From: Macrostomum lignano
Taxonomy: Eukaryota
Length of the DNA: 64,000 nt
Assembly: GCA_002269645.1 (NCBI GenBank)
Contig: NIVC01000040.1
Location: forward strand, 1,054,001-1,118,000
Direction of reading: 5' to 3'
Part shown: in pieces, positions 8,278 through 52,234 of the stretch
Layout of the letters: every line of letters starts with the position of its first letter
Numbering within the stretch: the first letter of the stretch is position 1
Notes under the pieces: generated by a model
Seen by the model: the letters and a program-made list of their open reading frames with translations, nothing else
Told to the model about the DNA's origin: nothing
The model's database searches: none
Program-made: the position numbers and the translations under genes

Positions 8278-9230
8278 TTAAGTTTAGCAAAGGATTCTTG
8301 AAGATAACCAAAAATTGGTAGGCCCCTATACTTTAGAAAGTCAATAATAATTTTTGTTGCTTTACAATAAAAATTTTACCATTAATTTAAAATTAAAGAA
8401 AATTATTGCTAAAAACTTCTAAGATAAGATTTTTGTTCTAGCATACATTTCTAGACAATCTAGACTCTACCTACCTAGGCAGCAGATTCAAATAGAATGA
8501 TTGCACATGAAGACTAATCTAGATTAATCTCAAGACTAATCATGCTATATAAAGAATTGCAAAGCTTTTACAAAGATTCAAAAGAGGGTAAATGCATTAT
8601 AGGCATCGCATTATCTTAGATTTTAAAGTTTTATATAATTGTATTTTTTAGAAGTAAAAAATACTTTTAGAGATCTAGAATACTTACCAGTCATGTTTTC
8701 CTATTTCATCTTCATAGAGTGCTAACACTGAATGCATTTGAAGAAACAGTAAAAAAATTAGCATGCAAAACGAAAATTTGTTCTTTTTAATCCCCATACT
8801 CAATATACTACAGTCCAGAGGTGCCTATGGGCTATGGCTATGTCTAGGATAACAAAAGTCAAAAAAGGGAAACGAATTTTGCTCTAGTAGCTAGGCTAAA
8901 GTTGGAAAATTTTCGCAACTAACAAGAATTGTAATGGCTGATCAATTTGTTAATGATTTTGATAAATGCTTTAAAATCGATGGCTAATCGCTAATCTACG
9001 CAGGGACAGGGTATGAATATGGTCAAAACGAAGATCTTATAAATTGTTTCGTAGAAAGTGACTTTAAAATCTATTTTATAAAACAGACTGAAACAAATGA
9101 AAAAGATCGTTAGCATTAGCTCTTATATTTATTGATGGTTGCCACCCCTCCCCCTTCCAATATTTTTTAAATCATTTGGCATTAATCTTTAATTATATTG
9201 CATTTCTATAACTAGAAACTAGGCAATAAG

Positions 9231-10262
9231 TGTGGCAGGCGGGATGCCACAGTGGTTGTTTGGACTCAGTTTTTAATAATTTTAAGTGCTATCAAAACTT
9301 TAATTTACTGACCCAACCACTGTCTTTTCACCCCATTTTTGTCCATCGTCTGCCCAGCTCCCTTTCCCTTCCGTGGCCTGGTCGCGTCCCTTCGCTGTTT
9401 TTTTGTCGTCCCTTTGTTGAAATTTTGTTATCCGCCCGGTGTCCCAATGTTTTTGAGCCGGTCCATCCCGTGAATTTCTGTTTGCCCAGCGTTTGCTTCC
9501 AGTACTTGTCAGCCCCTTTTCGGGTATTTAATCTGCTAATTGTGGTGCCCAGTTTTCTCTTCGTCTTTCTTCTGCTTCTTTCTTTTTGTTTCCCTTTCGT
9601 CTCCCTCGTTTTAGTAAGCTTTGATTCATTAAACTAGTGGTAATTTTTATTGAATTAATTTAGCGCCCCGGCGCCGCAAGAGCGAATTCATCTCGAGTGT
9701 CTAAATAATAATAATATTAACTTTATTCAGTTCTCGCCTGCTATTATCTTAACTAAGTTGCCATAATAAACCGACATCCTTAAATTAGCTTTAATTTCAT
9801 TCATTGAGCCATAGCTTCTCTTGAATCATTTGCCCGTGGGGCGTAAAATAACCAAAGTTCTCATCTCAAAGAAAGCTCTGAGACTTATCCGTTCCGTAAT
9901 ACGTAAATTACGGTGGTGGCAGCAACTACCCTACTGAAAGTAACCAGTTCAACACATCGGCGCATTAATTTACGGAGCCAGAAATCTCCGGCTTTTCTTC
10001 ATCGCTTTGAACGACCCGAGCCGCTAAACGACCGCTCTGCTACGATTACGACTACCCTCCCCCCGGACTTGAGAACCCGGCAGCCGGAGTAAAAGGAGAA
10101 AGATTTTCCTGTTGAGATTCGTCTGCGCGATTTTTCCGGTTTTATTCGTGCGAACTCAACATTCGGCGGAAATTCAAACGAGGAATCCGCTCCAGCTCAC
10201 TGGTGTCAGCAAATTTTCAAAACCGACCAATTTCCAAGAAAATCTCCTCCACCCCCACCTCA
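9231..10262 (+). repeat. 5' LTR (1032 bp)
   Basis: Direct repeat of 18395-19427. Starts TGTGG, ends CCTCA. By eye only one substitution (~9595) and one 1-nt indel (~10201) were noticed. Confidence 0.97.
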
Positions 10263-10263
10263 C

Positions 10264-10284
10264 TGGTGGTCAGCTAAGTGGGAT
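10264..10284 (+). promoter_or_regulatory. Putative primer-binding site (tRNA-Leu-like)
   Basis: TGGTGGTCAGCTAAGTGGGAT begins 1 nt after the 5' LTR. TGG complements the tRNA CCA end and the rest resembles the Leu-type PBS TGGTGTCAGAAGTGGGAT with extra bases. Confidence 0.6.
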
Positions 10285-10333
10285 AACGAGACGCCGAAAC
10301 CCTTTCAACGAGTCGTTCAAACGCTACATTACT

Positions 10334-11728
10334 ATGGCTTCAACTACTAATTCAACGGCCGCGGACGCGACAGCCGACGCCGCGGGCCCCGACAACTCAA
10401 CGACAAGACCGACCTACGACGAGATGATTCGCGCGGTGACCGAAGAGGTGCGCCGGCGACTGGAGCAGACCAGCCTGGGCCAGCCGCAACACTATCATCA
10501 TGTGTACCAGCAGCCCCAGCAGCAGGAGCGAGCTTCAGCGCCGAAACCGGTCAAGATTCAGCGGTATACGCAGAACCAGGAATTCGACGTCTGGATCCAG
10601 GCGCTGGAAGAGCGTTGCGAGCTCAACGGGATCACAGACGACAGACGCAAGAAGGCGGAGGTCCTAGTAAATCTGGACATCGCCACAACCTATCCCGCAG
10701 TCGTCAGGATGGAGCTGCCAGACAATCTGACGTTTGGTGAGTTCAAACAACGATTGTCTGAACGCTTTACGCATGTGGCCGACACGCTGGAGTACCGGGA
10801 GCAGTTCCGAAGCTGCCAGCAAGGCAAGAACGAGAGCGTTGACGACTATGGCGATCGACTAATTGCTCTGGCCGATAGAGCATTTCCGCATTTTACCCCG
10901 GTTCAGAAGCAGGCTGAACTGGTGGATCAGTTCACAGTGGGAGTGCGGATTGCTCAGTCGGCAAGAAAACAGCTGATCCTGGTGCGACCGCAGAATCTGA
11001 CCGCAGCGAGACGGGCCGTGCTACGCTTGGAGACAGCAGCTAGTCTGGCTCAGCGAGTAGCACCGCCGCCAGCAGCGAGACATGTCCGGGTCCTCGAAGA
11101 TGACAATGGTCAGACGCCCACTGTGGTGCAACACGACGACAAGTCATCTCGGCCCGAGGAGAACTGGTTGCGTGAAGTGATGGAACAACAAGCCGAAACT
11201 CTGCAGGAGCAGCGACGCCTACTGGAGACATTGAGTAACGAGATGCGAGAATTCTACTCACGGGGATCGCGCGACAACGACACCCCGGAGCCATTGGAGC
11301 CTCGCCACCAGCCGCGGGACTCGTGGGGCCAACGCTCCAGATGTCTGGTACCCTCGACTCCTCGCCGCAGCGCCGACGGAAGCGCCCAATTTACGACACC
11401 CGGCACGCGAATGGTGCCGCAGCAACCGTTCCATCGACTTCAGCAACCTCGAGACGGCAGCAATCCGCCACCGAGAACGCCGCCAGCAGGAGGTCAACGT
11501 CAGCAGCAGCAACAGCAGCAGCAGCAACAGCCGAGTTCAAGGCCGCCGCCTTACCAGCTGCGGCGACAAAGCGCAATGTGCTACAGGTGCAATCGCGAGC
11601 ATCGTGCCGATGAGTGCCCGCACCGGCGGTCGGCCAGCACCGCGTCCCAGCGCAACGGCAGCTCGGGAAACGGGACGGCTGGACGCGCCATCGGGGGCAG
11701 CGCCATCCAGCAGCCGCGCCAGCACTAA
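10334..11728 (+). CDS. gag: Gag polyprotein (464 aa from the first ATG after the PBS)
   Basis: Capsid-like retrotransposon gag motifs (FDVWIQALEERCELNGI, FRSCQQGKNESVDDYGDRL), a Gln/Pro-rich linker and a CCHC-type knuckle CYRCNREHRADEC. Confidence 0.92.
   Translation: MASTTNSTAADATADAAGPDNSTTRPTYDEMIRAVTEEVRRRLEQTSLGQPQHYHHVYQQPQQQERASAPKPVKIQRYTQNQEFDVWIQALEERCELNGITDDRRKKAEVLVNLDIATTYPAVVRMELPDNLTFGEFKQRLSERFTHVADTLEYREQFRSCQQGKNESVDDYGDRLIALADRAFPHFTPVQKQAELVDQFTVGVRIAQSARKQLILVRPQNLTAARRAVLRLETAASLAQRVAPPPAARHVRVLEDDNGQTPTVVQHDDKSSRPEENWLREVMEQQAETLQEQRRLLETLSNEMREFYSRGSRDNDTPEPLEPRHQPRDSWGQRSRCLVPSTPRRSADGSAQFTTPGTRMVPQQPFHRLQQPRDGSNPPPRTPPAGGQRQQQQQQQQQQPSSRPPPYQLRRQSAMCYRCNREHRADECPHRRSASTASQRNGSSGNGTAGRAIGGSAIQQPRQH
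11665..11711 (+). promoter_or_regulatory. -1 programmed ribosomal frameshift signal
   Basis: Slippery heptamer G GGA AAC (11665-11671) is in the correct gag phase. A 6-nt spacer follows, then a GC-rich stem GCTGGA..GCGC/GCGC..TCCAGC (11678-11711). Confidence 0.8.
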
Positions 11729-14700
11729 AGTCCCCGCCGAGGACTTTAGTCGCTCAGCAGGCCACTGCTGAGACCGCCTCCGCCGCACCTGTACAGAACT
11801 CTGCACCCAAGCGACCTCGAAGGGATCCGTTTTTAACTGGTGAGATTCAAGGCCGTTATTTTGCTTTCTTGCTTGACACCGGCTCCAAGTGCGAAGTCCT
11901 AGGATTCAGCACCTGGCACCGCCTATGTACTGACGACCCGACCCTGCGTGGCCAAATTGAGCCTTGCCTGCAGCGTATCGTGACCTACAATGGTGAACCA
12001 ATTCAAATGGCAGGCCAACTAACTATTAAAGTGAAGATTGGTAATTTCGAGCCAACAGTTAAGTTTCTGCTAGCGAAAGGATCGCACGACAACATCCTGG
12101 GCTTCGAGTTCCTAGAGAAGTACAGCACATCACTAGATCTCGCCGCCGGGATGCTGTTTTTCAAGGACGGCACTGCCGCGCCGCTTCGCTACACGCGAAC
12201 TGAGGCCACCACGTGCAGAATCTACACAGCCGAGAGCACTACTGTGCCACCGCTATCATCAGCCCGAATTAAGATTAAGCTAGCTAAGGGACGAGAAGAA
12301 AACCAGGGTACACCCGCTGTGATCGAGCCGTTAAAACCGGCTCGGCGCGAAGAAGATGTGCAGCATCTGGACGCTGCGCCTGCACTAATATCTATGGCTA
12401 ACGGAGAAGGCGCTATCGAGATGATTAATCGAGGAACAACATCGATCAAAGTACGGGCGAATGCCCTAGTTGGGATTGCTAGACCAATCAGACTGCCCGA
12501 GCTACAGTTCTTCCCGCTGCTGAAGCCAGAAGACTCTGTCAATCAAATTCAAAATGAAGATCCTGACGCTTGGATCAAGGAGATCGACATCAGCGAAGAC
12601 CTGTCCAGTGATCAGCGTGCTCAAGTCATCGAGCTATTGAAGAAGTACAAGACCATCTTCTCTCAAGGGCCACACGACCTCGGCCGAACTCATCTGGTCA
12701 CCCACAGTATTGTGCTAAAGGACACTAATCCGGTGCATCTCCCGACGCGAAGGATCCCGCCGCATCTGCTGCCCAAAGTGGATCAGCTACTCGACGATCT
12801 ACTTGCCAAAGGCGTGATTCGACCGAGCTTCTCCAGCTACAACACCCCGCTGGTGATCATCCCGAAGAAGGACGGCAGCCTGCGAATTGTGCAAGATTTT
12901 CGGAGTCTGAATCAAAAGTGCGAGTACTTTCCGTACCCGATACCGAACATCCAAGAAGCATTCGCCAGTCTCGAAGGAAGCCAGCTATTTAGTACATTCG
13001 ATTTGAATAGCGGCTACTATCAGATTCCTCTGCGTCCGGAGGATCAAGACCTGACTGCCTTCGCCACGCTGCACCGCGGACAGTTCGCCTACAATGTTAT
13101 GCCTATGGGATTAAGTTCAGCTCCAGCCAGCTTCATGCGCCTCATGAACGCTGTGCTCAACGGGATCGCCTACAAAAGTGCAATAGCCTATCTGGATGAC
13201 GTAATTGTCTATTCTAAGAAATTCAATGACCATCTGCAGCAGATGGAGGAAGTATTCAAGCGAGTCCAAGAAGCCAACTTAAAGTTCAAAGGCAAGAAGT
13301 GCCATCTATTTCGGGCAAGCCTCAACTACCTGGGACACGTGGTAACCAAAGATGGGATCAAAACTGACCCGGCGAAAATCGAAGCTATTCAAACCTGGCC
13401 AAGGCCAAGAACAGCCCGACAACTCAAGAGTTTTGTCTGCACGTGTGCCTATTATGCTAAATTCGTACCTGGCTATGCAGAACTTGCTGCTCCGCTCCAC
13501 GATCTAATCAAGGAGAAGAAGATCCGAAATTTCAATTGTCTATGGGGAAAAGCCCAGCAAGACGCGTTCGATCAGCTCAAAGCAGCCATGACTTCGACAT
13601 CAGTGCTCGCGTATCCGCAGTTCAGCGAGGATCCGGAAGTAATGTTTATCCTGGACACGGATGCTTCTGCGACCAGAATCGGAGCCTGCCTGAGCCAACG
13701 CCAAGCTGACGGAGTTGAGCGCCCAATCGGCTATTTCTCCCGGCGACTCAAACCGGCCGAAGCCCGGTATCCGATCACTAAACAAGAACTATTGGCAGTT
13801 GTAGACGGAATGCGACACTTCCGATTCTACCTGCTGGCCAAAAAGTTCATCTGCCGAACCGATCATGCCGCATTAACCTGGATCCTAAGGCGAACTCAAC
13901 AAGAAGGAATATTCGGACGATGGCTACAGCGCCTCAGTGAATTCGAGTTCGAGATCCAGCATCGAAAGTCAAGTCAGCATCAGAACGCCGACGGTCTCTC
14001 AAGACGGCCTGAGGACGACGCTGAATGTTTGGAGGAGGCTCAGCGAGAGGCCGCCGTCGAGGACCAAAGTAAGCAGCCAGCCGCGATAACTGGCGCAGCG
14101 GCGCCGAAGGTCCACGACAGCAGCCACCCTAGTCCTCCACCGAGCAAGAAGCGACCGACCCGCCGTCACCGACGAAAGCCGCCGACGAAATCAACTGAGT
14201 CCAACGGCGAGACTACGCCGCCCGCAACACCGACAGCCGACAGCAAGCCGCTGACAGAGCTGCATCCGCCGGCGACGAAGTCGAGGCCATCTGCCAGTCG
14301 TTATCGGGACTCACAGAGGTCGCCCACCAGCTTTAGCAGCACGACATGTTGCCCGTCAAGGAGCCGCCGGCTACTAGCTGAAGGCGACGAGGATAGCGAC
14401 CACAGTGCAGCCAGCAACGACAGCTGCCAATCCGTTCGCCGTCCTGTGTTCAAGAAAGTGAGATTCAGCCTCGATACCGACAGCTCTGCTGACTCACCCT
14501 CATCTGCTGACGAATCCAATTCCGACAAAAGCGACGCCGAAATGTCCGACGAGGATCGGCCTTCAAATTCTGCATCGACCCGGCAACCGGCCAGAGTAGC
14601 GATCGTGCGGAGGGAGCTCCAGACCCCGAATCATGCCGCCACAGCCGAAGCCGCGCCGACTAATTCGACTAACAGACGCCAAACATTGAACTTAACTGAT

Positions 14701-16251
14701 CACAATACGAGACCAGTCACACGTGAGGAGCTCCAGACCCATCAGCGTGCTGACTCCGCCATCGCGATGATGATCAACCTAATTGAAAGTCGACAACCGA
14801 AGCCGCCGCTGAATCAGCGATTAAATCTGACAAGAGATGAGAGAAATCTACTAGCGTTCTATGAGCAACTGGAAGTCCGAGACGACGGACTATTAGTCAT
14901 TCATCTCAACGATGATGGCGAGGAGGATAATGCGAGGATCGTCCTGCCGAAGAGTCTCGACGCAGCCGTGTTTGCCGACCTGCATGGTTCACCCTACTGC
15001 GGACACATGGGCCGAGATCTCACCATCGCGAAAGTGCGCGAAAGATTCTGGCGACCGGCCCTGGCCAAGGCCGTGTCCGACTATGTCGCTTCCTGCCAGA
15101 CCTGCACTCAGAGCAAAGGACGGCGACGCATCCCAGCGCATGTACAATCGTTTCCGGTCTGCGAAATCTATGGGCGATGCGCAATCGACATCATGGGCCC
15201 CACTGGAGACCCGACAGACCGAGGCAATAAGTACATCCTGACCTACGTCGACACTACGTCGAAATATCCATTCGCCTTCGCCATGAAGAATCAGCGGGCC
15301 AAGACGATCATAACTCTGCTGCAGGAACAAGTCTTCCCGATCACCGGAATCCCCGCGTGGATCCATTCGGACCAAGGCAAACAGTTCACAGGGCACGAGT
15401 TTCGACATTTCTGCGAAGTCTATGGCATCCGGCAGACAACGACGCCGCCATACTCGCCCTGGGCCAACGGTCAAGCTGAATCGTGCAACAAAAACATCAA
15501 AAAGGTGCTCACTTGCCTCCTTGAAGATCATCAACAGTGGGACAAGATGCTGCCAGCCGCTCTGACAGCTCTGAGATCAGCCGTCAATCGTACGACGGGA
15601 TTCTCGCCGCATTACGTCATCTACGGAGTGCCCTACCGGTATCCGATCGATAACACCCTAGACCGCCTGGACGTATCGCCGGACCTCCCCGAGTACATCG
15701 CAAAGCATCAGCGTAGACTGGCCGAGACCGAAAGGATTGTGCGACAGCGCTTGCGAGCTGAGATCCAACGCCGCGAAGAGTACTACGAGAACCGACCCAA
15801 GCCCGTGGAACTGCAGCCCGGAGACCTGGTTTGCCTGGCCAACCCGAAGCTCGAGTTGGGCGAGCTGCCGAAGTTTCACCGGCCGTACAAAAGCATGTAC
15901 AAGGTCAACAGAAAGGTCGGCGAAGTAGCCTACTGGATCCAGCCTGCAATAGCCCGACGTGGACGTCCAGCAGAAATACTCGTGCATCGCAATAACATCA
16001 TCAAGGTGCCGCAGATGATGGCAGATCGACCGCAGGAGCCGCCGCACCAAACTGAGCGGCCAATGCTGCCCTTCGAGTCGAGTGACGAAAGCGAAGTCGA
16101 CCCAGCCGATCAGCCCGCTCCAGAACAGCCAGCCGCAGCTCAGCCTGACCTGCGCGGCAGCCAATTGTTCGAGCCGAGCCTCCGCCATCCGGAAGTGCTG
16201 CCTGAAGGCGACCCGGATCTGCCTGACATCGGCATGGAGCTCGAGATCTAA
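11665..16251 (+). CDS. pol: Pol polyprotein (protease, RT, RNase H, integrase), -1 frame relative to gag
   Basis: Protease LLDTGS; RT FDLNSGYYQI, MPMGLSSAP, YLDD; RNase H DTDAS..TKQELLAVV..TDH; integrase HGSPYCGH..CQTC, IDIMGP, SDQGKQF, NGQAES. No internal stops. Confidence 0.97.
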   Translation, partial: GKRDGWTRHRGQRHPAAAPALKSPPRTLVAQQATAETASAAPVQNSAPKRPRRDPFLTGEIQGRYFAFLLDTGSKCEVLGFSTWHRLCTDDPTLRGQIEPCLQRIVTYNGEPIQMAGQLTIKVKIGNFEPTVKFLLAKGSHDNILGFEFLEKYSTSLDLAAGMLFFKDGTAAPLRYTRTEATTCRIYTAESTTVPPLSSARIKIKLAKGREENQGTPAVIEPLKPARREEDVQHLDAAPALISMANGEGAIEMINRGTTSIKVRANALVGIARPIRLPELQFFPLLKPEDSVNQIQNEDPDAWIKEIDISEDLSSDQRAQVIELLKKYKTIFSQGPHDLGRTHLVTHSIVLKDTNPVHLPTRRIPPHLLPKVDQLLDDLLAKGVIRPSFSSYNTPLVIIPKKDGSLRIVQDFRSLNQKCEYFPYPIPNIQEAFASLEGSQLFSTFDLNSGYYQIPLRPEDQDLTAFATLHRGQFAYNVMPMGLSSAPASFMRLMNAVLNGIAYKSAIAYLDDVIVYSKKFNDHLQQMEEVFKRVQEANLKFKGKKCHLFRASLNYLGHVVTKDGIKTDPAKIEAIQTWPRPRTARQLKSFVCTCAYYAKFVPGYAELAAPLHDLIKEKKIRNFNCLWGKAQQDAFDQLKAAMTSTSVLAYPQFSEDPEVMFILDTDASATRIGACLSQRQADGVERPIGYFSRRLKPAEARYPITKQELLAVVDGMRHFRFYLLAKKFICRTDHAALTWILRRTQQEGIFGRWLQRLSEFEFEIQHRKSSQHQNADGLSRRPEDDAECLEEAQREAAVEDQSKQPAAITGAAAPKVHDSSHPSPPPSKKRPTRRHRRKPPTKSTESNGETTPPATPTADSKPLTELHPPATKSRPSASRYRDSQRSPTSFSSTTCCPSRSRRLLAEGDEDSDHSAASNDSCQSVRRPVFKKVRFSLDTDSSADSPSSADESNSDKSDAEMSDEDRPSNSASTRQPARVAIVRRELQTPNHAATAEAAPTNSTNRRQTLNLTDHNTRPVTREELQTHQRADSAIAMMINLIESRQPKPPLNQRLNLTRDERNLLAFYEQLEVRDDGLLVIHLNDDGEEDNARIVLPKSLDAAVFADLHGSPYCGHMGRDLTIAKVRERFWRPALAKAVSDYVASCQTCTQSKGRRRIPAHVQSFPVCEIYGRCAIDIMGPTGDPTDRGNKYILTYVDTTSKYPFAFAMKNQRAKTIITLLQEQVFPITGIPAWIHSDQGKQFTGHEFRHFCEVYGIRQTTTPPYSPWANGQAESCNKNIKKVLTCLLEDHQQWDKMLPAALTALRSAVNRTTGFSPHYVIYGVPYRYPIDNTLDRLDVSPDLPEYIAKHQRRLAETERIVRQRLRAEIQRREEYYENRPKPVELQPGDLVCLANPKLELGELPKFHRPYKSMYKVNRKVGEVAYWIQPAIARRGRPAEILVHRNNIIKVPQMMADRPQEPPHQTERPMLPFESSDESEVDPADQPAPEQPAAAQPDLRGSQLFEPSLRHPEVLPEGDPDLPDIGMELEI

Positions 16252-16431
16252 CAGGTATTTACCTATGAATTTGTTATTGCGCCAAGTTGCTAACTTTTGA
16301 TGCGCATTACTAATAGTAGTTGTATCTGCGAACGCGTTCCAATTCTAATTTTGCTGTAAGCTTTCTCTGCACCTGTTTTGTGCTGGAAGCCGATTTTAGT
16401 TTTCCATTTAAGTTGCCGTTTTGTCATTTCT

Positions 16432-16972
16432 CCTTATGCTTTCCGGATAAAAGCAGGCGTCAAACTTCAAACTCAATGTACTTTTCCTTATGCTTGAGGG
16501 ATAAAAGCAACAATTTTCCAATTTGCTGTTCAAACTCTGTACTTTTCCTTATGCTTGAGGGATAAAAGCAACAATTTTCCAATTTGCTGTTCAAACTCTG
16601 TACTTTTCCTTATGCTTGAGGGATAAAAGCAATAATTCTCCCCTTTTTGCTGTACTTTAATTTTCCTTATGCTTTCTGGCTAAAAGCAGTGTATATATTT
16701 GAGCAGTTTCCGTGCTCATGTATAGTCTGCAATGTTGCTATTTACCCAACGCGATTCATTAATCAGCACCTCTGCGCTTCGTATTTATCCTTAAGCTTTC
16801 TGGCAAAAGCCCGCACCAATGCGACCATTTTATTCAACGCATTCAATATTTAATCAATGCGATACAGTATTTGTGTCTCATCTGATTTTGCGAATTCCCG
16901 TTATTGTAAACTTCTTTGCACACGATCAAAGTGCAGAAGTACCCCCTCTTTCCTTATGCTTTCGGAAAAGCA
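16432..16972 (+). repeat. Seven copies of a CCTTATGCTT-loop-AAGCA hairpin motif, including a 61-bp tandem repeat (~16477-16640)
   Basis: Copies start at 16432, 16486, 16547, 16608, 16665, 16789 and 16952. Each keeps a (T)GCTT(T)/(A)AAGC(A) stem while the loop varies. Confidence 0.85.
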
Positions 16973-17746
16973 AATTAATTATTGTACACCTTCTAGTTCG
17001 ATTAAAACGGAAGGTCCCCTCCCCCTTTTTCTCTACTATTCTGTGAGCCCGCTGTCTTAGGGCCAATTCGTCTGTGCCCCGTTCAGGTCAAGCGCCCCGG
17101 ATCCAGGCCTTGTCCTCAGCGGAGGGTTTTTTTGAGGTGACTCCCCCCCCCCCTGTTCTTTGTTTGTTTTGCTCGAGCCTGGGAACCTTGTGAGGGCCGC
17201 TAATTTTGGCTCCCCCTCTCCCAGTGCCAGTTGGTGCCCCTGTTTCATTGCAACTCCTTACGAAGCCTCTGCATGCCATATCGGAAGCTAACCTACTTTA
17301 TTATAACATTATTATTAGTACGGAGCCCGCCTTTGCTCCTTTACTAATTTTATTTCAACTGTTGTTTGTGTGCTAACCAGCCTTTTCTTAACCGCCCCAT
17401 TTGATGTGAGCCGTTCAAGGCGCCCCAATTCATTCTAAGTTAGACCCCCTGCTGCGGTTAGCTATCTGTTTTATTACTCCGCGATTAGTCACCCACCCCA
17501 CCTCCGTGCCCACCATAGAGTGCATGCGGGGCGGTGACTGGTGCCCTGTTCCAATGCGTGATTTTCCCCCTCATTCATCGCTTGGGCAGCCGCTCGCGTA
17601 TTTAAGGCAGCCAAGTGCCCCCCCACTGTCGTTAATTTTCAAATTTTTCTCCGTGCGCTTAGCAAAGTCCAATTCGCCTCCTATATATATTTTAGTTGTT
17701 TTCCATTGCTGCCTTAATTGCTTATCGTTGGTCGAGCTGCTACGTA

Positions 17747-18355
17747 ATGTCCGGCAACCCGACGTCTGACGGCGCTACCGGCCGGACACCGGACCTCGAT
17801 GCCACCCTCGCTAGAGCCCCATGGTTCCGGCCCGAAGAAGTGCCAACCCTGCGCGCCCTGACTTCCACCGCCGAAGGCGAGGCGCCGGCCCGAATTCGGT
17901 TTCAACAGGCGTTCGACGCGGCCGTGGACCAGGCTGTGCGCAAAGGCCGAGTTAGAATTGACGCGCAATGGCGGACCATGTGCGGCCTGATGCAGCCGTC
18001 TGCCGCCCAGGAGTTACTGAGCAGCTACCTGGCCAGCGCGGAGGAGAGCCTCCGCCAAGGGCAGAGCCGCCGACCAGCCCTAGCTTTATTATTGACTCTC
18101 GCCTACATGGAGGCCGGCCTCCTCAAGAATGGTTGGGACCTCCGCCTAAAGGCGTACTGGGACGCCACCATGGAGTGGTATCCCGAGAGACTACGGCTCG
18201 TCGACGGCCAGCTGCGCGTCTACGGCTGGCCCCCAGCTCCGAATCCGGCCCCGCTAACTCATGCGCCCAGGACCAACCGCCAGGGCGATACTGGCGCCGC
18301 CAACCGAGGCGGCCACCATTCGGCTGGCAGAGGATGCCACCACGGCAGCGGCTGA
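17747..18355 (+). CDS. Third ORF of the retrotransposon, 202-aa protein of unknown function
   Basis: A GC-rich, coding-like ORF (MSGNPTSDG...HHGSG) between pol and the 3' LTR. It is preceded by TATATATA (17682) and TTTTAG (17695). No signal peptide. Confidence 0.65.
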   Translation: MSGNPTSDGATGRTPDLDATLARAPWFRPEEVPTLRALTSTAEGEAPARIRFQQAFDAAVDQAVRKGRVRIDAQWRTMCGLMQPSAAQELLSSYLASAEESLRQGQSRRPALALLLTLAYMEAGLLKNGWDLRLKAYWDATMEWYPERLRLVDGQLRVYGWPPAPNPAPLTHAPRTNRQGDTGAANRGGHHSAGRGCHHGSG

Positions 18356-18394
18356 CTGCCTATTTTCTTCTGTTGCGTAGGGCCGCCCCGCGCA

Positions 18395-19427
18395 TGTGGC
18401 AGGCGGGATGCCACAGTGGTTGTTTGGACTCAGTTTTTAATAATTTTAAGTGCTATCAAAACTTTAATTTACTGACCCAACCACTGTCTTTTCACCCCAT
18501 TTTTGTCCATCGTCTGCCCAGCTCCCTTTCCCTTCCGTGGCCTGGTCGCGTCCCTTCGCTGTTTTTTTGTCGTCCCTTTGTTGAAATTTTGTTATCCGCC
18601 CGGTGTCCCAATGTTTTTGAGCCGGTCCATCCCGTGAATTTCTGTTTGCCCAGCGTTTGCTTCCAGTACTTGTCAGCCCCTTTTCGGGTATTTAATCTGC
18701 TAATTGTGGTGCCCAGTTTTCTCTTCGTCTTTCTTCTGCTTCTTTCTTTTTGTTTCCCCTTCGTCTCCCTCGTTTTAGTAAGCTTTGATTCATTAAACTA
18801 GTGGTAATTTTTATTGAATTAATTTAGCGCCCCGGCGCCGCAAGAGCGAATTCATCTCGAGTGTCTAAATAATAATAATATTAACTTTATTCAGTTCTCG
18901 CCTGCTATTATCTTAACTAAGTTGCCATAATAAACCGACATCCTTAAATTAGCTTTAATTTCATTCATTGAGCCATAGCTTCTCTTGAATCATTTGCCCG
19001 TGGGGCGTAAAATAACCAAAGTTCTCATCTCAAAGAAAGCTCTGAGACTTATCCGTTCCGTAATACGTAAATTACGGTGGTGGCAGCAACTACCCTACTG
19101 AAAGTAACCAGTTCAACACATCGGCGCATTAATTTACGGAGCCAGAAATCTCCGGCTTTTCTTCATCGCTTTGAACGACCCGAGCCGCTAAACGACCGCT
19201 CTGCTACGATTACGACTACCCTCCCCCCGGACTTGAGAACCCGGCAGCCGGAGTAAAAGGAGAAAGATTTTCCTGTTGAGATTCGTCTGCGCGATTTTTC
19301 CGGTTTTATTCGTGCGAACTCAACATTCGGCGGAAATTCAAACGAGGAATCCGCTCCAGCTCACTTGGTGTCAGCAAATTTTCAAAACCGACCAATTTCC
19401 AAGAAAATCTCCTCCACCCCCACCTCA
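18395..19427 (+). repeat. 3' LTR (1033 bp)
   Basis: Near-identical to 9231-10262 and followed by TSD TAAG. Confidence 0.97.
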
Positions 19428-19660
19428 TAAGCCTCTTCACGGCAATCGATTCCAGAACCAGAATCGGTTCGGATTTCCAAGAAAAAAAGCAGTATACTCG
19501 TAACTATTTAACTTTGTTGAATGTTTAAGTGCCCTAACAGTAACAGCCTCACTTTGCACAATTTTTCACTTTCTTCTTGGCTATTGGCATTCAATAATCA
19601 CAGTTTTAAAGCACTAATATCCCTCTAGTTTAGGAGACAAAAAGTTATACTTTACAAATT

Positions 19661-25559: not shown

Positions 25560-26963
25560 CTACATCACTTTGTCGAGTTCGAATCTTTCAGCAGCCTCCT
25601 GTCCAATCATGCCGGGCTCAATGAGCGCCGTAACTGCGGTGCGCGCGCTGTTGTCGAAAACGGCGCTATTATAGTCGACGTTGACTTCTTGGTCGGCTGC
25701 GTCGCGCCTGACGACGCACTCGAAGTTGTTGTCAGTTTCAACTCTGCGTCCGACGGCGACGCCGCTTCTGCTGAAAGTTCCGCTGCCTGCGGCTTCGTTC
25801 CGAGCCCGACGACGGCGGCAGAAGCAGAGTCCGCTTGCCAGCGAGCGCAGGGCGACGGCCAGCGATTTGCGGAACGAGGCGGACACCAGGCAGTAGAAGA
25901 TGAAGTTGATAGCGCAGCCAGTTACCTGGCTTAGCGTTGTCAGACTGGTCAGTCTCTGCAGTATATAATATGTTCGAATCGCTGCGAATTCGGAGCTCTT
26001 GAGGCGGATGAGCAAAGTGTTGCTAATGTATCTCCTGCACAGCAGGTTGAGTATCTGGCCTGGACTGATTAGCACAAGGAACAGCAAGGTGACGGTCACC
26101 AATAACGGTGTCAGATTATCTGTCTGCTGTACAGCTCCGGCACCGTTGCCTTGCAAACGCGTTGTAGCATCTTCTTGATTGCCATTCTGGGCGTTCAGCT
26201 GGTTGCGCTGTCGCAGACTGGACCTGTAGGCCAGGATTAGGCGGATGTTGCAGACTACGATGCCGAGTAGAGGCAACGCGTTTACTAGCAAAATAGTGGC
26301 CCAGTAGTAAATATAAGCGTGCCATTTCATGCCAGGGTCCAGCTCTTTCCTCCGGTTGAAAGTGTAGCACGAGTTACTGTTGATCGAGTTGTCTATTGTC
26401 GCTTCGTATTTAAAGAAATCAGGGAAATGCAACACAACAGCGGCGACAAAAACGATGCCAATTGAGACGCGCAGTTTTTTCCGGTTGAGCCAGTTGCGCG
26501 ACTGCAGCGGCCGCCAGACAGCCAGATAGCGGCAAACCGTAATTGTTAAAGTGAGCCACACGCTAGACGCCATGAAAATGTTGGCGAAAGCCTGGCCAAG
26601 AATCTGCGAATAAAGCAGACTCAAAGATGAGCATTGCGGTCTGGTCTTGCTGATCGGCAGCGAGCTCAAACAGATGCACAAATCCGACACGGCTAGGGCC
26701 ATCAGCGACTGCGACATGGAGCTCTCCAGCCTTGCTGGTCGGCCTCCTAAACCATCTCCGCTAGCTACGCCGCCGCGCTGTTGTCGCTTGCAGGGCTTAG
26801 CGAAGGCTAAAACTGTGAGCAAGTTGCCAGCGATGCCCAGCAGGCAGACGGACCGGAGACCGATGCCCAGACAGACTGATTCGAAATCACGGAAATTCCG
26901 TATGGCGGCGGCCACTTGTTTGACAAAATCGCTGCTGTCATTCTTGCCGCCTGACTCGAGCAT
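25560..26963 (-). CDS. Intronless rhodopsin-class (class A) GPCR, FMRFamide/peptide-receptor-like, ~467 aa
   Basis: Seven hydrophobic helices with class A motifs: GIAGNLL (TM1), LAVSDL (TM2), TVCRYLAV (DRY variant), LLFLVLISPGQ (TM6), AINFIFYCLVSASFR (TM7/H8). Start set at MLESGG; the upstream extension in the ORF track is AT-rich and probably non-coding. Confidence 0.9.
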   Translation of the reverse strand: MLESGGKNDSSDFVKQVAAAIRNFRDFESVCLGIGLRSVCLLGIAGNLLTVLAFAKPCKRQQRGGVASGDGLGGRPARLESSMSQSLMALAVSDLCICLSSLPISKTRPQCSSLSLLYSQILGQAFANIFMASSVWLTLTITVCRYLAVWRPLQSRNWLNRKKLRVSIGIVFVAAVVLHFPDFFKYEATIDNSINSNSCYTFNRRKELDPGMKWHAYIYYWATILLVNALPLLGIVVCNIRLILAYRSSLRQRNQLNAQNGNQEDATTRLQGNGAGAVQQTDNLTPLLVTVTLLFLVLISPGQILNLLCRRYISNTLLIRLKSSEFAAIRTYYILQRLTSLTTLSQVTGCAINFIFYCLVSASFRKSLAVALRSLASGLCFCRRRRARNEAAGSGTFSRSGVAVGRRVETDNNFECVVRRDAADQEVNVDYNSAVFDNSARTAVTALIEPGMIGQEAAERFELDKVM

Positions 26964-28143
26964 TGCGATTTTGGAGTAAAATCTGTGAATTGGTGAGTTG
27001 GTATGGAGCTTGAGCATCTGGATTGATTTGTTTTTCAAGTTCAAATAGATGATTGTGTGGTGATTCCTAATCAAAATGATTTTAAACTTTTTTTCGCCGA
27101 TTAAATTGATGAATCGAATATTGGACATTGGATTCTGGATACTCGTACGCAGGCACAGTGGACTCATTTTTTGATTTTCACGCATTGTCAAGGACTCTTG
27201 TCAAATCGAAACCGCGCGGATTTGGACGCGTTAATTAATCGTTGAACTGATGTTTGTCCAAAAATAGGAGCAAGCGCCTGGCATGTAGTTGTCCAAAGTC
27301 AATGCCAAACCAAGGCGCACTGAAAGCTGTCTTGAAAACTTTTAATCAAAAGGAAAGCGGATTAGCTACAGACCGGGAACTGGGACTGCAGCTGTACGTA
27401 GGAAGTCCTATTGATTAGTAGAATAAACCTTAAATAGTCGACGCTAGTTTATCTAGTTCAAAGCGGCGAAAACCGATCTAAAATGGTACAATCTTGGCTG
27501 TACAATTCCGTTTTCAGTAAGCCAACATCAAAGTATTTTAAGTAAGAGATGCATCGGAATCGCCCAATAGTTATGCAGGATTATGAACCAACTGTGCGGT
27601 AAACGCAGTCACAAGTTAGTTTCGAGCGTAGTTTAAATACGAGTTTGAATCGTAAGACGTCTATGCAAAAGTGTGACTTTAATATTGAATATTGAATTAT
27701 TTTATTTAATAACTTCATTTAACAATAAGGCTAGCGCAGACTCGTGACAAGGTTAAAAAACTACCGCAGATTTTTGCTGTAGAACTTAATTAACTGTAAT
27801 GACTTACCAGCGTGCCTATAAGCAGGGAATGTGTTGTTTCGAAAGTTGGCGGTAATTAAAAATTTTTGCTCCTGCTTTTCCACGACTGTATTAACTTTAA
27901 CTTTATCCATTCAGCTTTACATGTTAGCAAAAACATATAGCTTATCTAGTGCTCAGTTATTGGCTGTGCAGGAATTCTTGTTGGCTGATCTGTCAATCCA
28001 ACCAATCGCACATCGAACTAGGAGTTGTCGCCTTGTTTGATTTTGCTGAAGCATTGAATCCATCTTTTCTAAGCATGTTCTATGAGAGTTCAGTTTGACA
28101 GTCTTATCAAATCAACGTCAGCCAACTTTTAAAAAATTATTTA

Positions 28144-30808: not shown

Positions 30809-47532
<16,724 letters not shown>

Positions 47533-49144: not shown

Positions 49145-52100
49145 ATGCCGCCGATCAAATTGGCCATAGTAACGCTTTTGTTGCTGCTGCCGAGTCTTGT
49201 TGTCACCTCGCCAACAGAGAAGGCAACTAAAAAACAGCCGAACATCCTCATATTGCTGGTGGACGACTTGGGCTTCGGCGACATCGGTGAGTCCTTCTTT
49301 TTTGTAGAAATGTTTTTAAGGCCGTCCTAAAAGAAAAAATAATTAATTTAATTAATTTTCATTTCTCAATTCTTGAATGCTTTAAATTTATTCTAAGATA
49401 GTTTAACGTCTTGCCAGTGGCATGTCAGGCCGGCGCACTTAAAGCGACATTGTCACACAACTGGCAAGAAGCATTGCTGCCCCCATTCCGCCGACTCCCC
49501 TGAGCAGGCACACAAGCGCGCGGATACGTACGCAGTCATACGCACAGGCACACTCACACAGGAGTGTACAGCGGCCCTAACTTTATTGATCGTTAGGCAT
49601 GTACACTTCACAGTGCCTTGGGGGTTGGCCCTCAAGCTGGGCATTAATTGCACGAGCAGAGCCAAGCCGAGATCCCAATCTAGCCCAAAAATAATGCGAC
49701 TGCACTTGGAATCGAGCCTGGGCCGCTGGCACACCAGAGTGCCGCGCTGGACGACTAGGCTACGGCCGACCTTATTCGAATATTACTTTAGCTTTGTTTG
49801 CAAAACGGTTCAATGCTTTACCAAAAATTTCCTTCTAACCTCGCAGGCGCCAACGGTAACACCACAATTCGAACGCCGAATGTTGACAGAATCGCCAAGG
49901 AAGGCGTCCGGCTGTCGCACCACCTGACAGCCGCGCCAGTTTGTACGCCGAGTCGGTCGGCACTGCTGACGGGAAAATATCCCATTAGGATGGGCATGGT
50001 GCCCAGCATCCAGATGCAGGTGTTCCCGTTCACGGCTAGCCAAGCCGGTTTGCCAACTAATGAGACCACTTTTGCCAAGGTGGCTCAGCGGTCTGGCTAC
50101 CGCACCGGACTGATTGGTGAGCGATCGACCGCTTAGGGTCTTCATGCATTTTTTGTTGTAAATTTTAATTATTGGGTTTGAAGAGATTGTGCTGTGGGGA
50201 CTTGTTTTGCGTGCTGAGTGTGAGGGATTGTTTTGCGGTGGTGGGTGTGAGGGCTTGTCTTGGGGTGATGGATGTGAGGGGTTTGTCTTGGGGTGGTGGT
50301 TGTGAGGGGTTTGTCTTGGGGTGGTGGTTGTGAGGGGCTTGTCTTGGGGTGGTGGGTGTGAGGGGCTTGTCTTGGGGTGGTGGGTGTGAGGGGCTTGTCT
50401 TGGGGTGGTGGTTGTGAGGGGTTTGTCTTGGGGTGGTGGTTGTGAGGGGCTTGTCTTGGGGTGGTGGGTGTGAGGGGCTTGTCTTGGGTGGTGGGTGTGA
50501 GGGGCTTGTCTTGGGGTGGTGGGTGTGAGGGGCTTGTCTTGGGGTGGTGGGTGTGAGGGGCTTGTCTTGGGGTGGTGGGTGTGAGGGGCTTGACATGTGT
50601 CACGTAACGTACATGTATGCATTGTGTGCCCGATCCGCCACTATTGCGCAACTACACAACCAGGAAAGTGGCATTTGGGCGCCCACTGCAGCAACAGCAA
50701 AGACTTCTGCCACCATCCGAACAACCACGGCTTCGACTATTTCTACGGCTGCCTGCTGACTCTGTTGAAAGATTTCAGCGGCCTAGGCGAGTCGATCCTA
50801 CATTCGCGATTTCCTCACTACTACAGGAACATCAGCCTCACACTGCTGGCTACATTGGCTTCTCTCGGTGTGGGCTACAAAATTGGCATCCTGCCCAGAA
50901 AACTCTGCATATTCTTAGCTTTGCTGGGCGTCCTTGTTACCGGATTCCTATTCTGCCTGCCGGGTTACCTAGTCCGCACCGTGAACAGCCAGCTTCATCG
51001 GCAAACCGAGCTGGTTGAACAGCCAATTCGATTTGAGAAACTGACCCAGCGGCTGGTCTGGGAAGGCGAAGAGTTCCTTGACAAGGCGGTGGACGAGGGA
51101 AAGCCGTTTCTGCTATTCATGTCTTTCCTTCAGGTTCGGAGCTGACTAATTTTACTAGCTTTTGCCTCATTTTTCATTGGGGTAGCGGTGCTCAAGAGGT
51201 GTGAGCTATCCGATTGAGTCTGGGGTAGCGGTGCTCAGGAGGTGTGAGCTATCCGATTGAGTCTGGGGTAGCGGTGCTCAGGAGGTGTGAGCTATCCGAT
51301 TGAGTCTGGGGTAGCGTTGAATTTCAAATAGTTAATGCTTGGCCCCCGTTCTTCCAAAATGCCGCAGGTGCACTCCCCGTTGTACAATTCGGTACCCGGA
51401 TATCGGGGTCGCAGCGCCCACGGCTGGTACGGCGACAACATCGAAGAGATGGACTGGTCCGTCGGCCAGATCCTCGACGCTCTGGACAAGCGCGGCCTGT
51501 CCGACGACACCATCGTGTACTTCAGCTCGGACAATGGCGGCCACATCGAGGAGACGACGCACACGGGCGAGCGGGCCGGCGGCCACAACGGCATCTATCG
51601 GGGCAGCAAATGTCAGGGCGCCGTTGACGGCGGCATCCGCGTGCCTGGACTGCTGCGCTGGCCTGGCGTCATCCCGGCTGGCAGTCAGAGCAACGCGCTG
51701 ACCTCCCAGATGGACATCTTCCCGACTCTGCTGGAGGCCATGGGCCAGCCGGTACCGTCGGGCATCGACGGTCGCAGCATCACAAAGCTCCTGCGCCAGC
51801 CTCAATCAACAAAATCGCCTCACGACTTTCTGTTTCAATACTGCGGCACCTTGCTGCACGCGGTGCGTTGGAACTCGCCCGAGGGGGTGCTCAAGCTGCG
51901 GCACTACTCCCCCAACTGGCTGCCCGGCACTGAGGGCTGCCGCTACATCTGCGGCTGCATGGAAGGCCTCGGCAGCGTTCGACACTCGGTGCCGCTGCTG
52001 TACGACCTCAGCACCGACGAGCGCGAGACCGCCATCGTCCCCGCCGACTCGGAGCGCTACCGCCGTCTGGTGCCGCAAATTCTCGAAGCCGAGAGGCGTC

Positions 52101-52234
52101 ATCAGGCGAGCCTGAGCTCAGTGCCGAGCCAGTTCACCTTCGCCAAGCTCATGTGGCGGCCCTGGCTGCAGGACTGCTGCAATTTCCCCCTCTGCAACTG
52201 TCGGGACACCAAGTACGACAGTAGGCCAGCCTAG
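49145..52234 (+). CDS. Steroid-sulfatase/arylsulfatase (STS/ARSD-H-like) gene, 4 exons, 582 aa
   Basis: Exons 49145-49286, 49847-50116, 50664-51133 and 51368-52234 join in phase (1749 nt). Signal peptide, PNILILLVDDLGFGD, formylglycine motif CTPSR, GKWHLG, GFDYFYG, a two-helix hydrophobic insert, SSDNGG, DIFPT. Confidence 0.93.
50240..50592. repeat. G-rich 27-bp intronic minisatellite (GGTGGGTGTGAGGGGCTTGTCTTGGGG)
   Basis: Direct reading, in sulfatase intron 2. Confidence 0.95.
51178..51317. repeat. 43-bp tandem repeat, ~3.3 copies
   Basis: GGGGTAGCGGTGCTCAGGAGGTGTGAGCTATCCGATTGAGTCT, in sulfatase intron 3. Confidence 0.9.

What the first reader, a model, noticed from the sequence alone, without database searches (positions are those of the whole stretch)
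17747..18355. Extra non-Env ORF3 carried by the retrotransposon
Seen: a 202-codon GC-rich ORF at the position where errantiviruses carry env. It has no signal peptide or clear TM anchor, one hydrophobic stretch (ALALLLTLAYMEAGLL), several Trp residues and an RGG/His-rich tail. A TATA-like run (17682-17690) and a possible acceptor (TTTTAG, 17695) precede it. I recognise no homologue. Inference: an accessory protein made from an internal promoter or a spliced subgenomic RNA, possibly for RNA binding, silencing suppression or spread, or a captured host fragment.
Basis: partly seen in the sequence, partly recalled or inferred. Interest (0 to 1): 0.75.

Follow-up and report, generated by a model that had tools for sequence, protein, structure and literature searches.

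The report
Orphan helical gene on flatworm retrotransposon
An intact, recently inserted retrotransposon, likely from a Macrostomum flatworm, carries a third gene that lacks envelope-protein features and encodes a conserved, predicted soluble helical protein of no recognised family, which likely serves as an accessory factor acting inside the host's stem cells.

Summary
The 202-codon ORF (17747-18355, +) is real. It lies 1,495 nt after pol and 39 nt before the 3' LTR of an intact Ty3/Gypsy element (LTRs differ by 1 substitution and 1 indel; 4-bp target duplication). They share a 141-residue core at 50% and 45% identity, with 5 of 6 Trp invariant; both tails vary. The core is predicted to be a soluble five-helix bundle plus a beta-hairpin, with no Pfam, PDB or viral-fold match. 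It fails the sequence tests for Env and for sORF2/FAST fusogens, and a weak Scabin hit vanishes with a profile. Both homologues come from RNA-based gene models, and one is labelled neoblast-strict (405 of 58,669 rows carry that label). A TATA box 65 nt upstream is mildly non-random (P 0.03-0.04); the proposed acceptor is unremarkable. Still untested: whether the homologues sit in retrotransposons, dN/dS, a transcript of this copy, and function. Verdict: a new, selected, non-Env accessory ORF family. Known kind of arrangement, unrecognised protein.

The parts
9227..9230 (+). target-site duplication TAAG, left copy (right copy 19428-19431)
9231..10262 (+). 5' LTR, TG...CA, 1032 bp
   Evidence: 1 substitution and 1 single-base indel against the 3' LTR
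10264..10283 (+). primer-binding-site-like sequence starting TGG, 1 nt after the LTR (tRNA-Leu-like by recall, not tested)
10334..11728 (+). gag, 464 aa, with one Cys-His knuckle
   Evidence: Retrotrans_gag E 6e-5 (just under the Pfam cut-off)
11614..16251 (+). pol, PR-RT-RNaseH-IN, stop-free for 1545 codons, in the -1 frame to gag; candidate slippery heptamer GGGAAAC at 11665
   Evidence: the frameshift itself is inferred
16252..17746 (+). T-rich non-coding spacer; 54-61-nt tandem units at about 16422-16690
   Evidence: no Rfam match at E<=1
17529..17690 (+). candidate internal promoter: GC box 17529, CCAAT 17551 and 17669, TATA box 17682-17690
   Evidence: TATAWAW within -150..-30 of the ATG in 4.0% and 2.6% of 3000 shuffles; function inferred
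17690..17695 (+). candidate 3' splice acceptor TTTTAG, in frame with ORF3 (the frame is open from 17696)
   Evidence: rank 11 of 64; weak
17747..18355 (+). ORF3, 202 aa
17813..18235 (+). conserved core, residues 23-163; predicted five helices plus a C-terminal beta-hairpin over residues 45-160
18236..18352 (+). variable low-complexity tail with one RGG, predicted disordered
   Evidence: pLDDT under 50 for 166-202; 6 of 39 columns invariant
18395..19427 (+). 3' LTR, 1033 bp; AATAAA at 18929

Best explanation
ORF3 is a conserved protein-coding gene on an intact Ty3/Gypsy retrotransposon, and it likely encodes a soluble helical accessory protein that would bind a host or element partner inside host cells, probably stem cells, rather than act as an envelope. 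Shown: the intact element, the ORF, a conserved core shared with two M. lignano protein clusters, no membrane anchor. Predicted: a five-helix bundle with disordered tails. Inferred: (1) a short mRNA from an internal TATA promoter that ends at the 3' LTR poly(A) signal, because ORF3 has 17 upstream ATGs in the spacer alone and could hardly be translated from genomic RNA; (2) a non-enzymatic adaptor role, with the conserved Trp/Pro-rich N-terminal motif and the bundle as binding surfaces; (3) a benefit to the element in neoblasts, the dividing stem cells (recalled: they also found the germ line), most plausibly by blunting host control. Rough odds: real selected gene 0.97; soluble non-Env 0.9; element-borne family rather than passenger 0.65; internal promoter 0.5; host-control antagonist specifically 0.25.
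For: Element intact and young. phmmer over 1.84 billion representatives gave 2 hits, E 8.5e-31 and 7.9e-29, both M. lignano hypothetical proteins. Core identity is 71 of 141 and 63 of 141, with 53 of 141 invariant, including Trp 5 of 6, Pro 7 of 9, Cys 1 of 1, but Ser 0 of 7 and Thr 0 of 6; the N-terminal 22 residues have 2 invariant and the tail 6 of 39. AlphaFold2 with 4 sequences gave mean pLDDT 64, with blocks of 71-91 over residues 51-160. Hydropathy maximum 1.16; 0 sequons and 0 furin sites in 4 of 4 proteins. Core divergence (45-50%) matches the integrase-region divergence between this element and its two closest named M. lignano pol clusters (41% and 45%), as co-inheritance with sister elements would give. 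The GenBank gene set was built from RNA-seq (PMC5730564 passages). Mlig017912.g1 and .g4 are labelled neoblast-strict (both rows trace to one transcript), a label with 405 occurrences in 58,669 rows. Mlig013834 has baseMean 147.5 in another RNA-seq study. TATA placement.
Against: The DNA around the homologues could not be read, so they may be host genes. The GenBank set was filtered against repeat overlap, though pol proteins got through. 0 of 11 table rows for three related pol genes carry a neoblast label. ORF3 codon use tilts slightly toward two host ORFs (log-likelihood +3.8 over 191 codons). The neoblast label concerns a 42-45% identical homologue, not this copy. The TATA P-value is modest and was tested after the motif was seen. 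No dN/dS was obtained. The adaptor role rests only on generic helical-repeat resemblance (best Z 7.9).
Confidence: 0.5

Rival explanations
1. ORF3 is a host gene captured by one sub-lineage of the element and carried as a passenger or mild helper; the two homologous clusters are ordinary lineage-specific Macrostomum genes.
For: Slightly host-like codon use (C3 0.47, against 0.29 and 0.33 in gag and pol and 0.40 and 0.53 in two host ORFs). The homologues passed a repeat filter. One gene model joins the P0122 sequence to CHMP2a, so that locus lies beside a host gene. Three loci of Mlig017912 would fit the duplicated genome.
Against: ORF3 is only 45-50% identical to both clusters over the core, so it is no recent copy of either, and it stayed open with a conserved core. 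No relative outside M. lignano among 1.84 billion representatives. The repeat filter is leaky (pol proteins).
Confidence: 0.27
2. ORF3 is a nucleic-acid-binding regulator of the element itself: a transactivator of its own promoters (like spumavirus Tas, made from an internal promoter; recalled) or an RNA export or packaging factor using its Arg/Gly tail.
For: Position next to U3 with a candidate internal promoter. An RG/RGG-containing tail in 4 of 4 proteins. Drosophila MDG1 sORF1 is a nuclear accessory ORF with a predicted helix-turn-helix (PMC11952523 section 7).
Against: Net charge is +4, +1, -7 and -8. Only 4 of 16 core Arg and 1 of 3 core Lys are invariant. There are 1-2 RGG per protein and the tail is poorly conserved.
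Confidence: 0.13
3. ORF3 is an Env substitute that spreads particles between cells.
For: Env-like position. If the host spliced leader, which ends in ATG (PMC8629364 passage), were joined at 17695, it would add 18 residues in frame, including a short hydrophobic run.
Against: No transmembrane segment, sequon, furin site or Cys network. No Gly at position 2 and twice the length of sORF2 proteins (63-107 aa). The homologues start with polar, acidic residues.
Confidence: 0.05
4. The ORF is a chance open frame in GC-rich DNA.
For: GC 0.665; stop-free runs of this length arose in 1.9% and 3.4% of shuffles.
Against: Homologues at E 1e-28 or better with a residue-specific conservation pattern; strong GC3 bias and a sharp compositional border. 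A neutral model expects about 7-8 stops at this divergence (inflated because only open frames enter protein databases).
Confidence: 0.02

Closest known systems
Non-Env ORF3s of bdelloid rotifer LTR retrotransposons (Juno, Vesta, TelKA; PMC5408684, passages seen)
   Same: Animal Ty3/Gypsy-type elements with a family-specific third ORF after pol that is not a canonical Env; some are 210-230 aa.
   Different: Those ORF3s are GDSL esterases, DEDDy exonucleases, coiled-coil or transmembrane proteins. This one matches no Pfam family and has no transmembrane segment.
Errantivirus Env, F-type or gB-type (PMC13524379, passages seen)
   Same: Position between pol and the 3' LTR.
   Different: No signal peptide, anchor, furin site or Cys network, and only 202 aa. 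That paper reports flatworm env elements as GAG-ENV-POL with gB-type Env.
Drosophila MDG1-group sORF1 and sORF2 (PMC11952523, passages and section 7 seen)
   Same: Small accessory ORFs on env-less Ty3/Gypsy elements; sORF1 is a soluble nuclear protein.
   Different: They lie upstream of gag and are about 110 and 70 aa; sORF2 is a transmembrane FAST-like protein. I did not compare their sequences with ORF3 directly.
M. lignano hypothetical proteins BOX15_Mlig013834g1 and Mlig017912g1/g3/g4
   Same: The same 141-residue core at 50% and 45% identity; RG-containing tails.
   Different: Uncharacterised, with unknown genomic context. P0122 has an extra region of about 90 aa that does not score as a second copy of the core.

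Membership tests
Ty3/Gypsy LTR retrotransposon (host element) | Paired TG...CA LTRs with target-site duplication | tested here: met
Ty3/Gypsy LTR retrotransposon (host element) | gag, then pol in the order PR-RT-RNaseH-IN | tested here: met
Ty3/Gypsy LTR retrotransposon (host element) | Polypurine tract before the 3' LTR | tested here: not met
   no run of 11 or more purines in 16252-18420; the bases before the LTR are GC-rich
Gmr1/Osvaldo clade (suspected from recalled RT motifs and LTR length) | RT groups with reference Gmr1/Osvaldo elements | not tested
Errantivirus Env | C-terminal transmembrane anchor and N-terminal signal peptide | tested here: not met
   best Kyte-Doolittle 19-mer 1.16 against 2.1-2.3 for the GPCR control; polar N-terminus; hydropathy only
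Errantivirus Env | Furin site, sequons, conserved Cys bridges | tested here: not met
   0 furin sites, 0 sequons, 1 conserved Cys
Errantivirus Env | F or gB fusion-protein fold | tested here: inconclusive
   no match above background; an unlisted family is not excluded
sORF2/FAST fusogens | Short protein (63-107 aa in insects) with one transmembrane segment after a ~30-aa ectodomain, usually with an N-myristoylation motif | tested here: not met
   202 aa, no transmembrane segment, Ser at position 2
GDSL esterase or DEDDy exonuclease ORF3 (bdelloid type) | Sequence match to these enzyme families | tested here: not met
   no Pfam family at E<=1 for P0001, P0122, P0123 or P0125; no PDB hit with the profile; no such NCBIfam family
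Scabin/pierisin-type ADP-ribosyltransferase | Match over the catalytic domain with the conserved Arg | tested here: not met
   the match covers only Scabin residues 11-78, and ORF3 Pro84 faces Arg77 (catalytic role recalled); 0 hits with the profile; 16.3 bits against a cut-off of 250, 1 of 4 members
RGG-box RNA-binding protein | Clustered, conserved RGG/RG repeats (definition recalled) | tested here: inconclusive
   1-2 RGG and 2-4 RG per protein, poorly aligned
Element-borne accessory ORF family | Homologues lie between pol and a 3' LTR in sister elements, with dN/dS below 1 | not testable with these tools
   no genome held; DNA of the homologues not retrievable

The most novel reading that the evidence does not exclude
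Several Macrostomum Ty3/Gypsy lineages share a dedicated accessory gene with an unrecognised helical fold. It is made as its own short mRNA, from an internal promoter or by borrowing the host's spliced leader, in neoblasts, where it binds host machinery to let the element escape stem-cell silencing. That would be an animal retrotransposon's counter-defence protein in a genetically tractable stem-cell system.
Probability: 0.2. Interest if true: 0.78.

Novelty: new variant of a known kind. Interest (0 to 1): 0.47.

Why it matters
Non-Env third ORFs are known in rotifer, insect and plant LTR elements, but few have a function, and those described in the papers I read are enzymes, coiled-coil, membrane or small nuclear proteins. 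This one defines an unnamed soluble protein family and ties two anonymous M. lignano genes, one neoblast-enriched, to a mobile element. M. lignano has transgenesis (PMC5730564) and, from my own knowledge, RNAi, so localisation, partners and knock-down effects are directly testable. If the homologues prove to be host genes, it is instead a case of gene capture or domestication between element and stem-cell genome.

Tried and rejected
Sequence and family searches with no hit for ORF3: Pfam, PHROGs, word-index search with the single protein (it missed even the two true homologues), word-index search with the profile (only the same two clusters, and only 8000 candidates scored), ESM Atlas twice, viral and metagenome contigs. 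The core profile found nothing in 6 of 6 distant RT loci (five are under 1.4 kb) and nothing else in the window, so ORF3 is no detectable copy of gag or pol.

Fold searches: Foldseek gave 0 matches at E<=0.001 in PDB and in BFVD. VIA-align gave 0 of 48,161 chains at Z>=8 (best 7.9, rmsd 2.8, 104 aligned) and 0 of 941 in the second look (best 5.7). No fusion-protein, lysozyme-like or ADP-ribosyltransferase fold was among the listed rows, which does not exclude them. Five cullin-containing entries at Z 5.0-6.4 and three CTD-interacting-domain proteins at Z 5.4-5.7 were judged generic helical matches.

Ideas rejected: Scabin-like ADP-ribosyltransferase. A second core copy in the P0122 extension (score -0.7 bits; shuffles reach 6.9). 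Element-flanking inverted repeats around ORF3 (nothing above short chance pairs).

Reads: no RNA holder listed. Laying 4 of 24 listed runs, all contigs, gave no dN/dS because only 40 of 4,121 variant rows were shown and none lay in ORF3. No joint into 17695-17747 was among the 15 of 147 joints shown. Run X14 had almost no cover over ORF3, and the RNA label of X13 and X14 is a guess. Summed depth cannot rank parts, so I did not use it as evidence.

Orthogroup membership of the homologues in other Macrostomum species: no row in the held part of the table, but that file was cut, so inconclusive; six further supplements were too large to read. Supplements of PMC12801592, PMC5816591 and PMC5730564 had no rows for the homologues. 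Earlier scan findings: 4 look-ups, nothing.

Full report
Observation. The ORF runs from ATG 17747 to TGA 18355 and gives 202 aa. It has GC 0.665 and GC3 0.74, and the best codon fit to gag+pol of its six frames. An ATG ORF this long arose in 0.9% of 2000 dinucleotide shuffles of the pol-to-LTR region and 0.15% of 2000 shuffles of the GC-rich part.

The element. The LTRs are 9231-10262 and 18395-19427, TG...CA, and differ by 1 substitution and 1 indel; TAAG is duplicated on both sides. gag (10334-11728) overlaps pol (11614-16251) in the -1 frame, with GGGAAAC at 11665 as a candidate slip site. The order is protease, RT, RNase H, integrase, so this is Ty3/Gypsy. Among the 120 listed of 1,377 RT-RNase H hits, the closest by identity are Macrostomum lignano proteins at 58-60%; all others are 47% or less. 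The host is therefore likely Macrostomum. No genome was held, and 0 of 7 window proteins were in the collection letter for letter, so the species is not fixed. The clade was not tested; PMC12801592 (first sixth of the text, passages and supplement 1 seen) lists Mag, CsRN1, Gmr1/Osvaldo and Mdg3 for M. lignano and does not use the word ORF.

Homologues. phmmer over 1.84 billion representatives found 2 proteins (E 8.5e-31 and 7.9e-29). Both are M. lignano hypothetical proteins, Mlig013834g1 and Mlig017912g1/g3/g4. Over ORF3 residues 23-163 they are 71 of 141 and 63 of 141 identical, and 82 of 141 identical to each other. Invariant columns number 53 of 141 in the core, 2 of 22 before it and 6 of 39 after it. 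Trp (5 of 6), Pro (7 of 9) and Cys (1 of 1) are kept; Ser (0 of 7) and Thr (0 of 6) are not. This is the pattern of selection on a folded protein. A neutral model would expect 7-8 stops, though that figure is inflated because databases hold only open frames. A profile search added nothing. dN/dS among close copies could not be computed.

What the protein is not. The hydrophobic stretch reaches 1.16 on a 19-residue Kyte-Doolittle window against 2.1-2.3 for a GPCR control. There are no sequons or furin sites in 4 of 4 proteins, and one conserved Cys. That excludes Env as described in PMC13524379 (passages) and sORF2/FAST as described in PMC11952523 (passages and section 7) on sequence features. 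A Scabin hit (E 1.8e-4) covers only Scabin residues 11-78, vanishes with the profile, and scores 16.3 bits against a cut-off of 250. No Pfam or PHROG family matched.

Structure. The single-sequence model was poor (pLDDT 47). With 4 sequences it reached mean pLDDT 64 and pTM 0.56, with five helices (45-66, 73-81, 84-103, 110-122, 132-144) and a hairpin (149-158). The hydrophobic stretch is the fourth helix, likely buried. The conserved N-terminal motif (residues 23-31) has low confidence, as a binding motif might. The best structural match had Z 7.9 (rmsd 2.8, 104 aligned), and the list is dominated by helical-repeat scaffolds. By the tool's own calibration this is background for helical bundles. 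It shows neither a known nor a new fold.

Expression. ORF3 has 17 ATGs ahead of it in the spacer alone, so a separate mRNA is inferred. TATAWAW falls within 150-30 nt of the ATG in 2.6-4.0% of 3000 shuffles; a GC box and CCAAT words lie upstream; and there is no ATG between 17555 and 17746 (7.2% of shuffles). AATAAA at 18929 in the 3' LTR would end such an RNA. The acceptor at 17695 ranks 11th of 64. The host uses spliced-leader trans-splicing widely (38.8% of genes; PMC5730564 passages), and its leader ends in ATG (PMC8629364 passages), which would be in frame at 17696. But the enriched YTNCAG motif, found at 9,551 of 21,754 host sites, occurs 0 times in the spacer. The internal promoter is mildly favoured; trans-splicing is not excluded.

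Expression of the homologues. The GenBank gene set was assembled from RNA-seq. In a supplement of PMC7336406 (searched rows and passages seen), Mlig017912.g1 and .g4 are neoblast-strict and Mlig013834.g1 is socially down-regulated. The neoblast-strict label has 405 occurrences in 58,669 rows, and both labelled rows trace to one transcript. In a supplement of PMC12896417 (one row seen) Mlig013834 has baseMean 147.5. Against this, 0 of 11 rows for three related pol genes carry a neoblast label; two further pol ids had no row. That fits either a separately driven ORF3 or a host gene.

Element-borne or captured. For co-inheritance: the core diverges as much as integrase does between this element and its two nearest named pol clusters (41% and 45%), and the family was found only in M. 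lignano. For capture: codon use tilts slightly host-like, the homologues passed a leaky repeat filter, no listed contig length is shared with the pol clusters, and one homologue lies upstream of CHMP2a in a gene model. I put element-borne at about 0.65.

Mechanism. Most likely a soluble helical adaptor made from an internal promoter and acting in dividing stem cells to the element's benefit. The gene, its conservation and the lack of a membrane anchor are shown; the fold is predicted; promoter, adaptor role and stem-cell action are inferred.

Comparison and novelty. Non-Env ORF3s are a known kind (PMC5408684 passages). This protein family matches none of the described types. Full-text searches found no paper naming the homologues (0 papers) and none combining spliced leader, trans-spliced, LTR retrotransposon and subgenomic (0 papers). 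Searches listed nothing on a Macrostomum ORF3, judged from listings and abstract starts; PMC13269885 passages added nothing. The library lacks most subscription papers, an earlier M. lignano LTR classification cited by PMC12801592 was not read, and unread supplements may bear on this. Verdict: new variant of a known kind, interest 0.47.

Noticed in passing
window 18365-18394: No purine-rich tract precedes the 3' LTR (no run of 11 or more purines in 16252-18420), although the LTRs are 99.8% identical and the element must have replicated recently. Plus-strand priming here is unexplained.
   Followed up: partly
window 18352-18380: A branch-point word, pyrimidine tract and TAG lie just after ORF3's stop. 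This is rank 3 of 64 acceptor-like sites in the element, above the one before ORF3. An ATG at 18392 opens a T-rich frame of about 136 codons into U3, probably non-coding.
   Followed up: partly
window 9914, 10201, 10264: PBS-like words recur inside the LTR, one preceded by the same CTCA as the LTR end, as if U5 grew by duplication; the single indel between the two LTRs sits at this spot.
   Followed up: no
window about 14000-14750 (pol residues 800-1040): A low-complexity Ser/Thr/Pro/Arg-rich insert of about 240 aa lies between RNase H and integrase; it does not align with the closest M. lignano pol proteins.
   Followed up: partly
window 16422-16963: Tandem units of 54-61 nt with a 15-nt core seen 7 times, in the 3' spacer; possibly a packaging or recombination signal.
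   Followed up: no
window 9231-18394: Summed contig depth in run X1 is 780-1760 over gag-pol but 39-48 over ORF3 and 114 over the first LTR bin. The tool says depth cannot rank parts, so this is only a lead that most gag-pol relatives carry a different 3' region and U3.
   Followed up: no
window 16108 to 17488 and 17705-18222: One X1 contig joins the end of pol directly to the region upstream of ORF3, skipping the spacer. One X20 contig (other organism label) covers 17705-18222 with 74 other letters and 24 gap letters: a diverged ORF3 copy whose frame could not be read.
   Followed up: no
window 9231-18394: C>T and G>A places outnumber T>C and A>G by about 2.2-2.8 fold in 4 of 4 runs, suggesting deamination-type decay of sister copies.
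   Followed up: no
P0124: A 1217-aa gene model fuses the P0122 homologue to CHMP2a/Snf7; probably an annotation chimera, but it places that homologue upstream of an ESCRT-III gene.
   Followed up: partly
window 40751-46414 (+): A 1887-codon ORF with long 14-residue tandem repeats and no clear Pfam family.
   Followed up: no
window 25560-27185 (-) and 51335-52234 (+): Ordinary host genes: a rhodopsin-family GPCR and an arylsulfatase segment.
   Followed up: no
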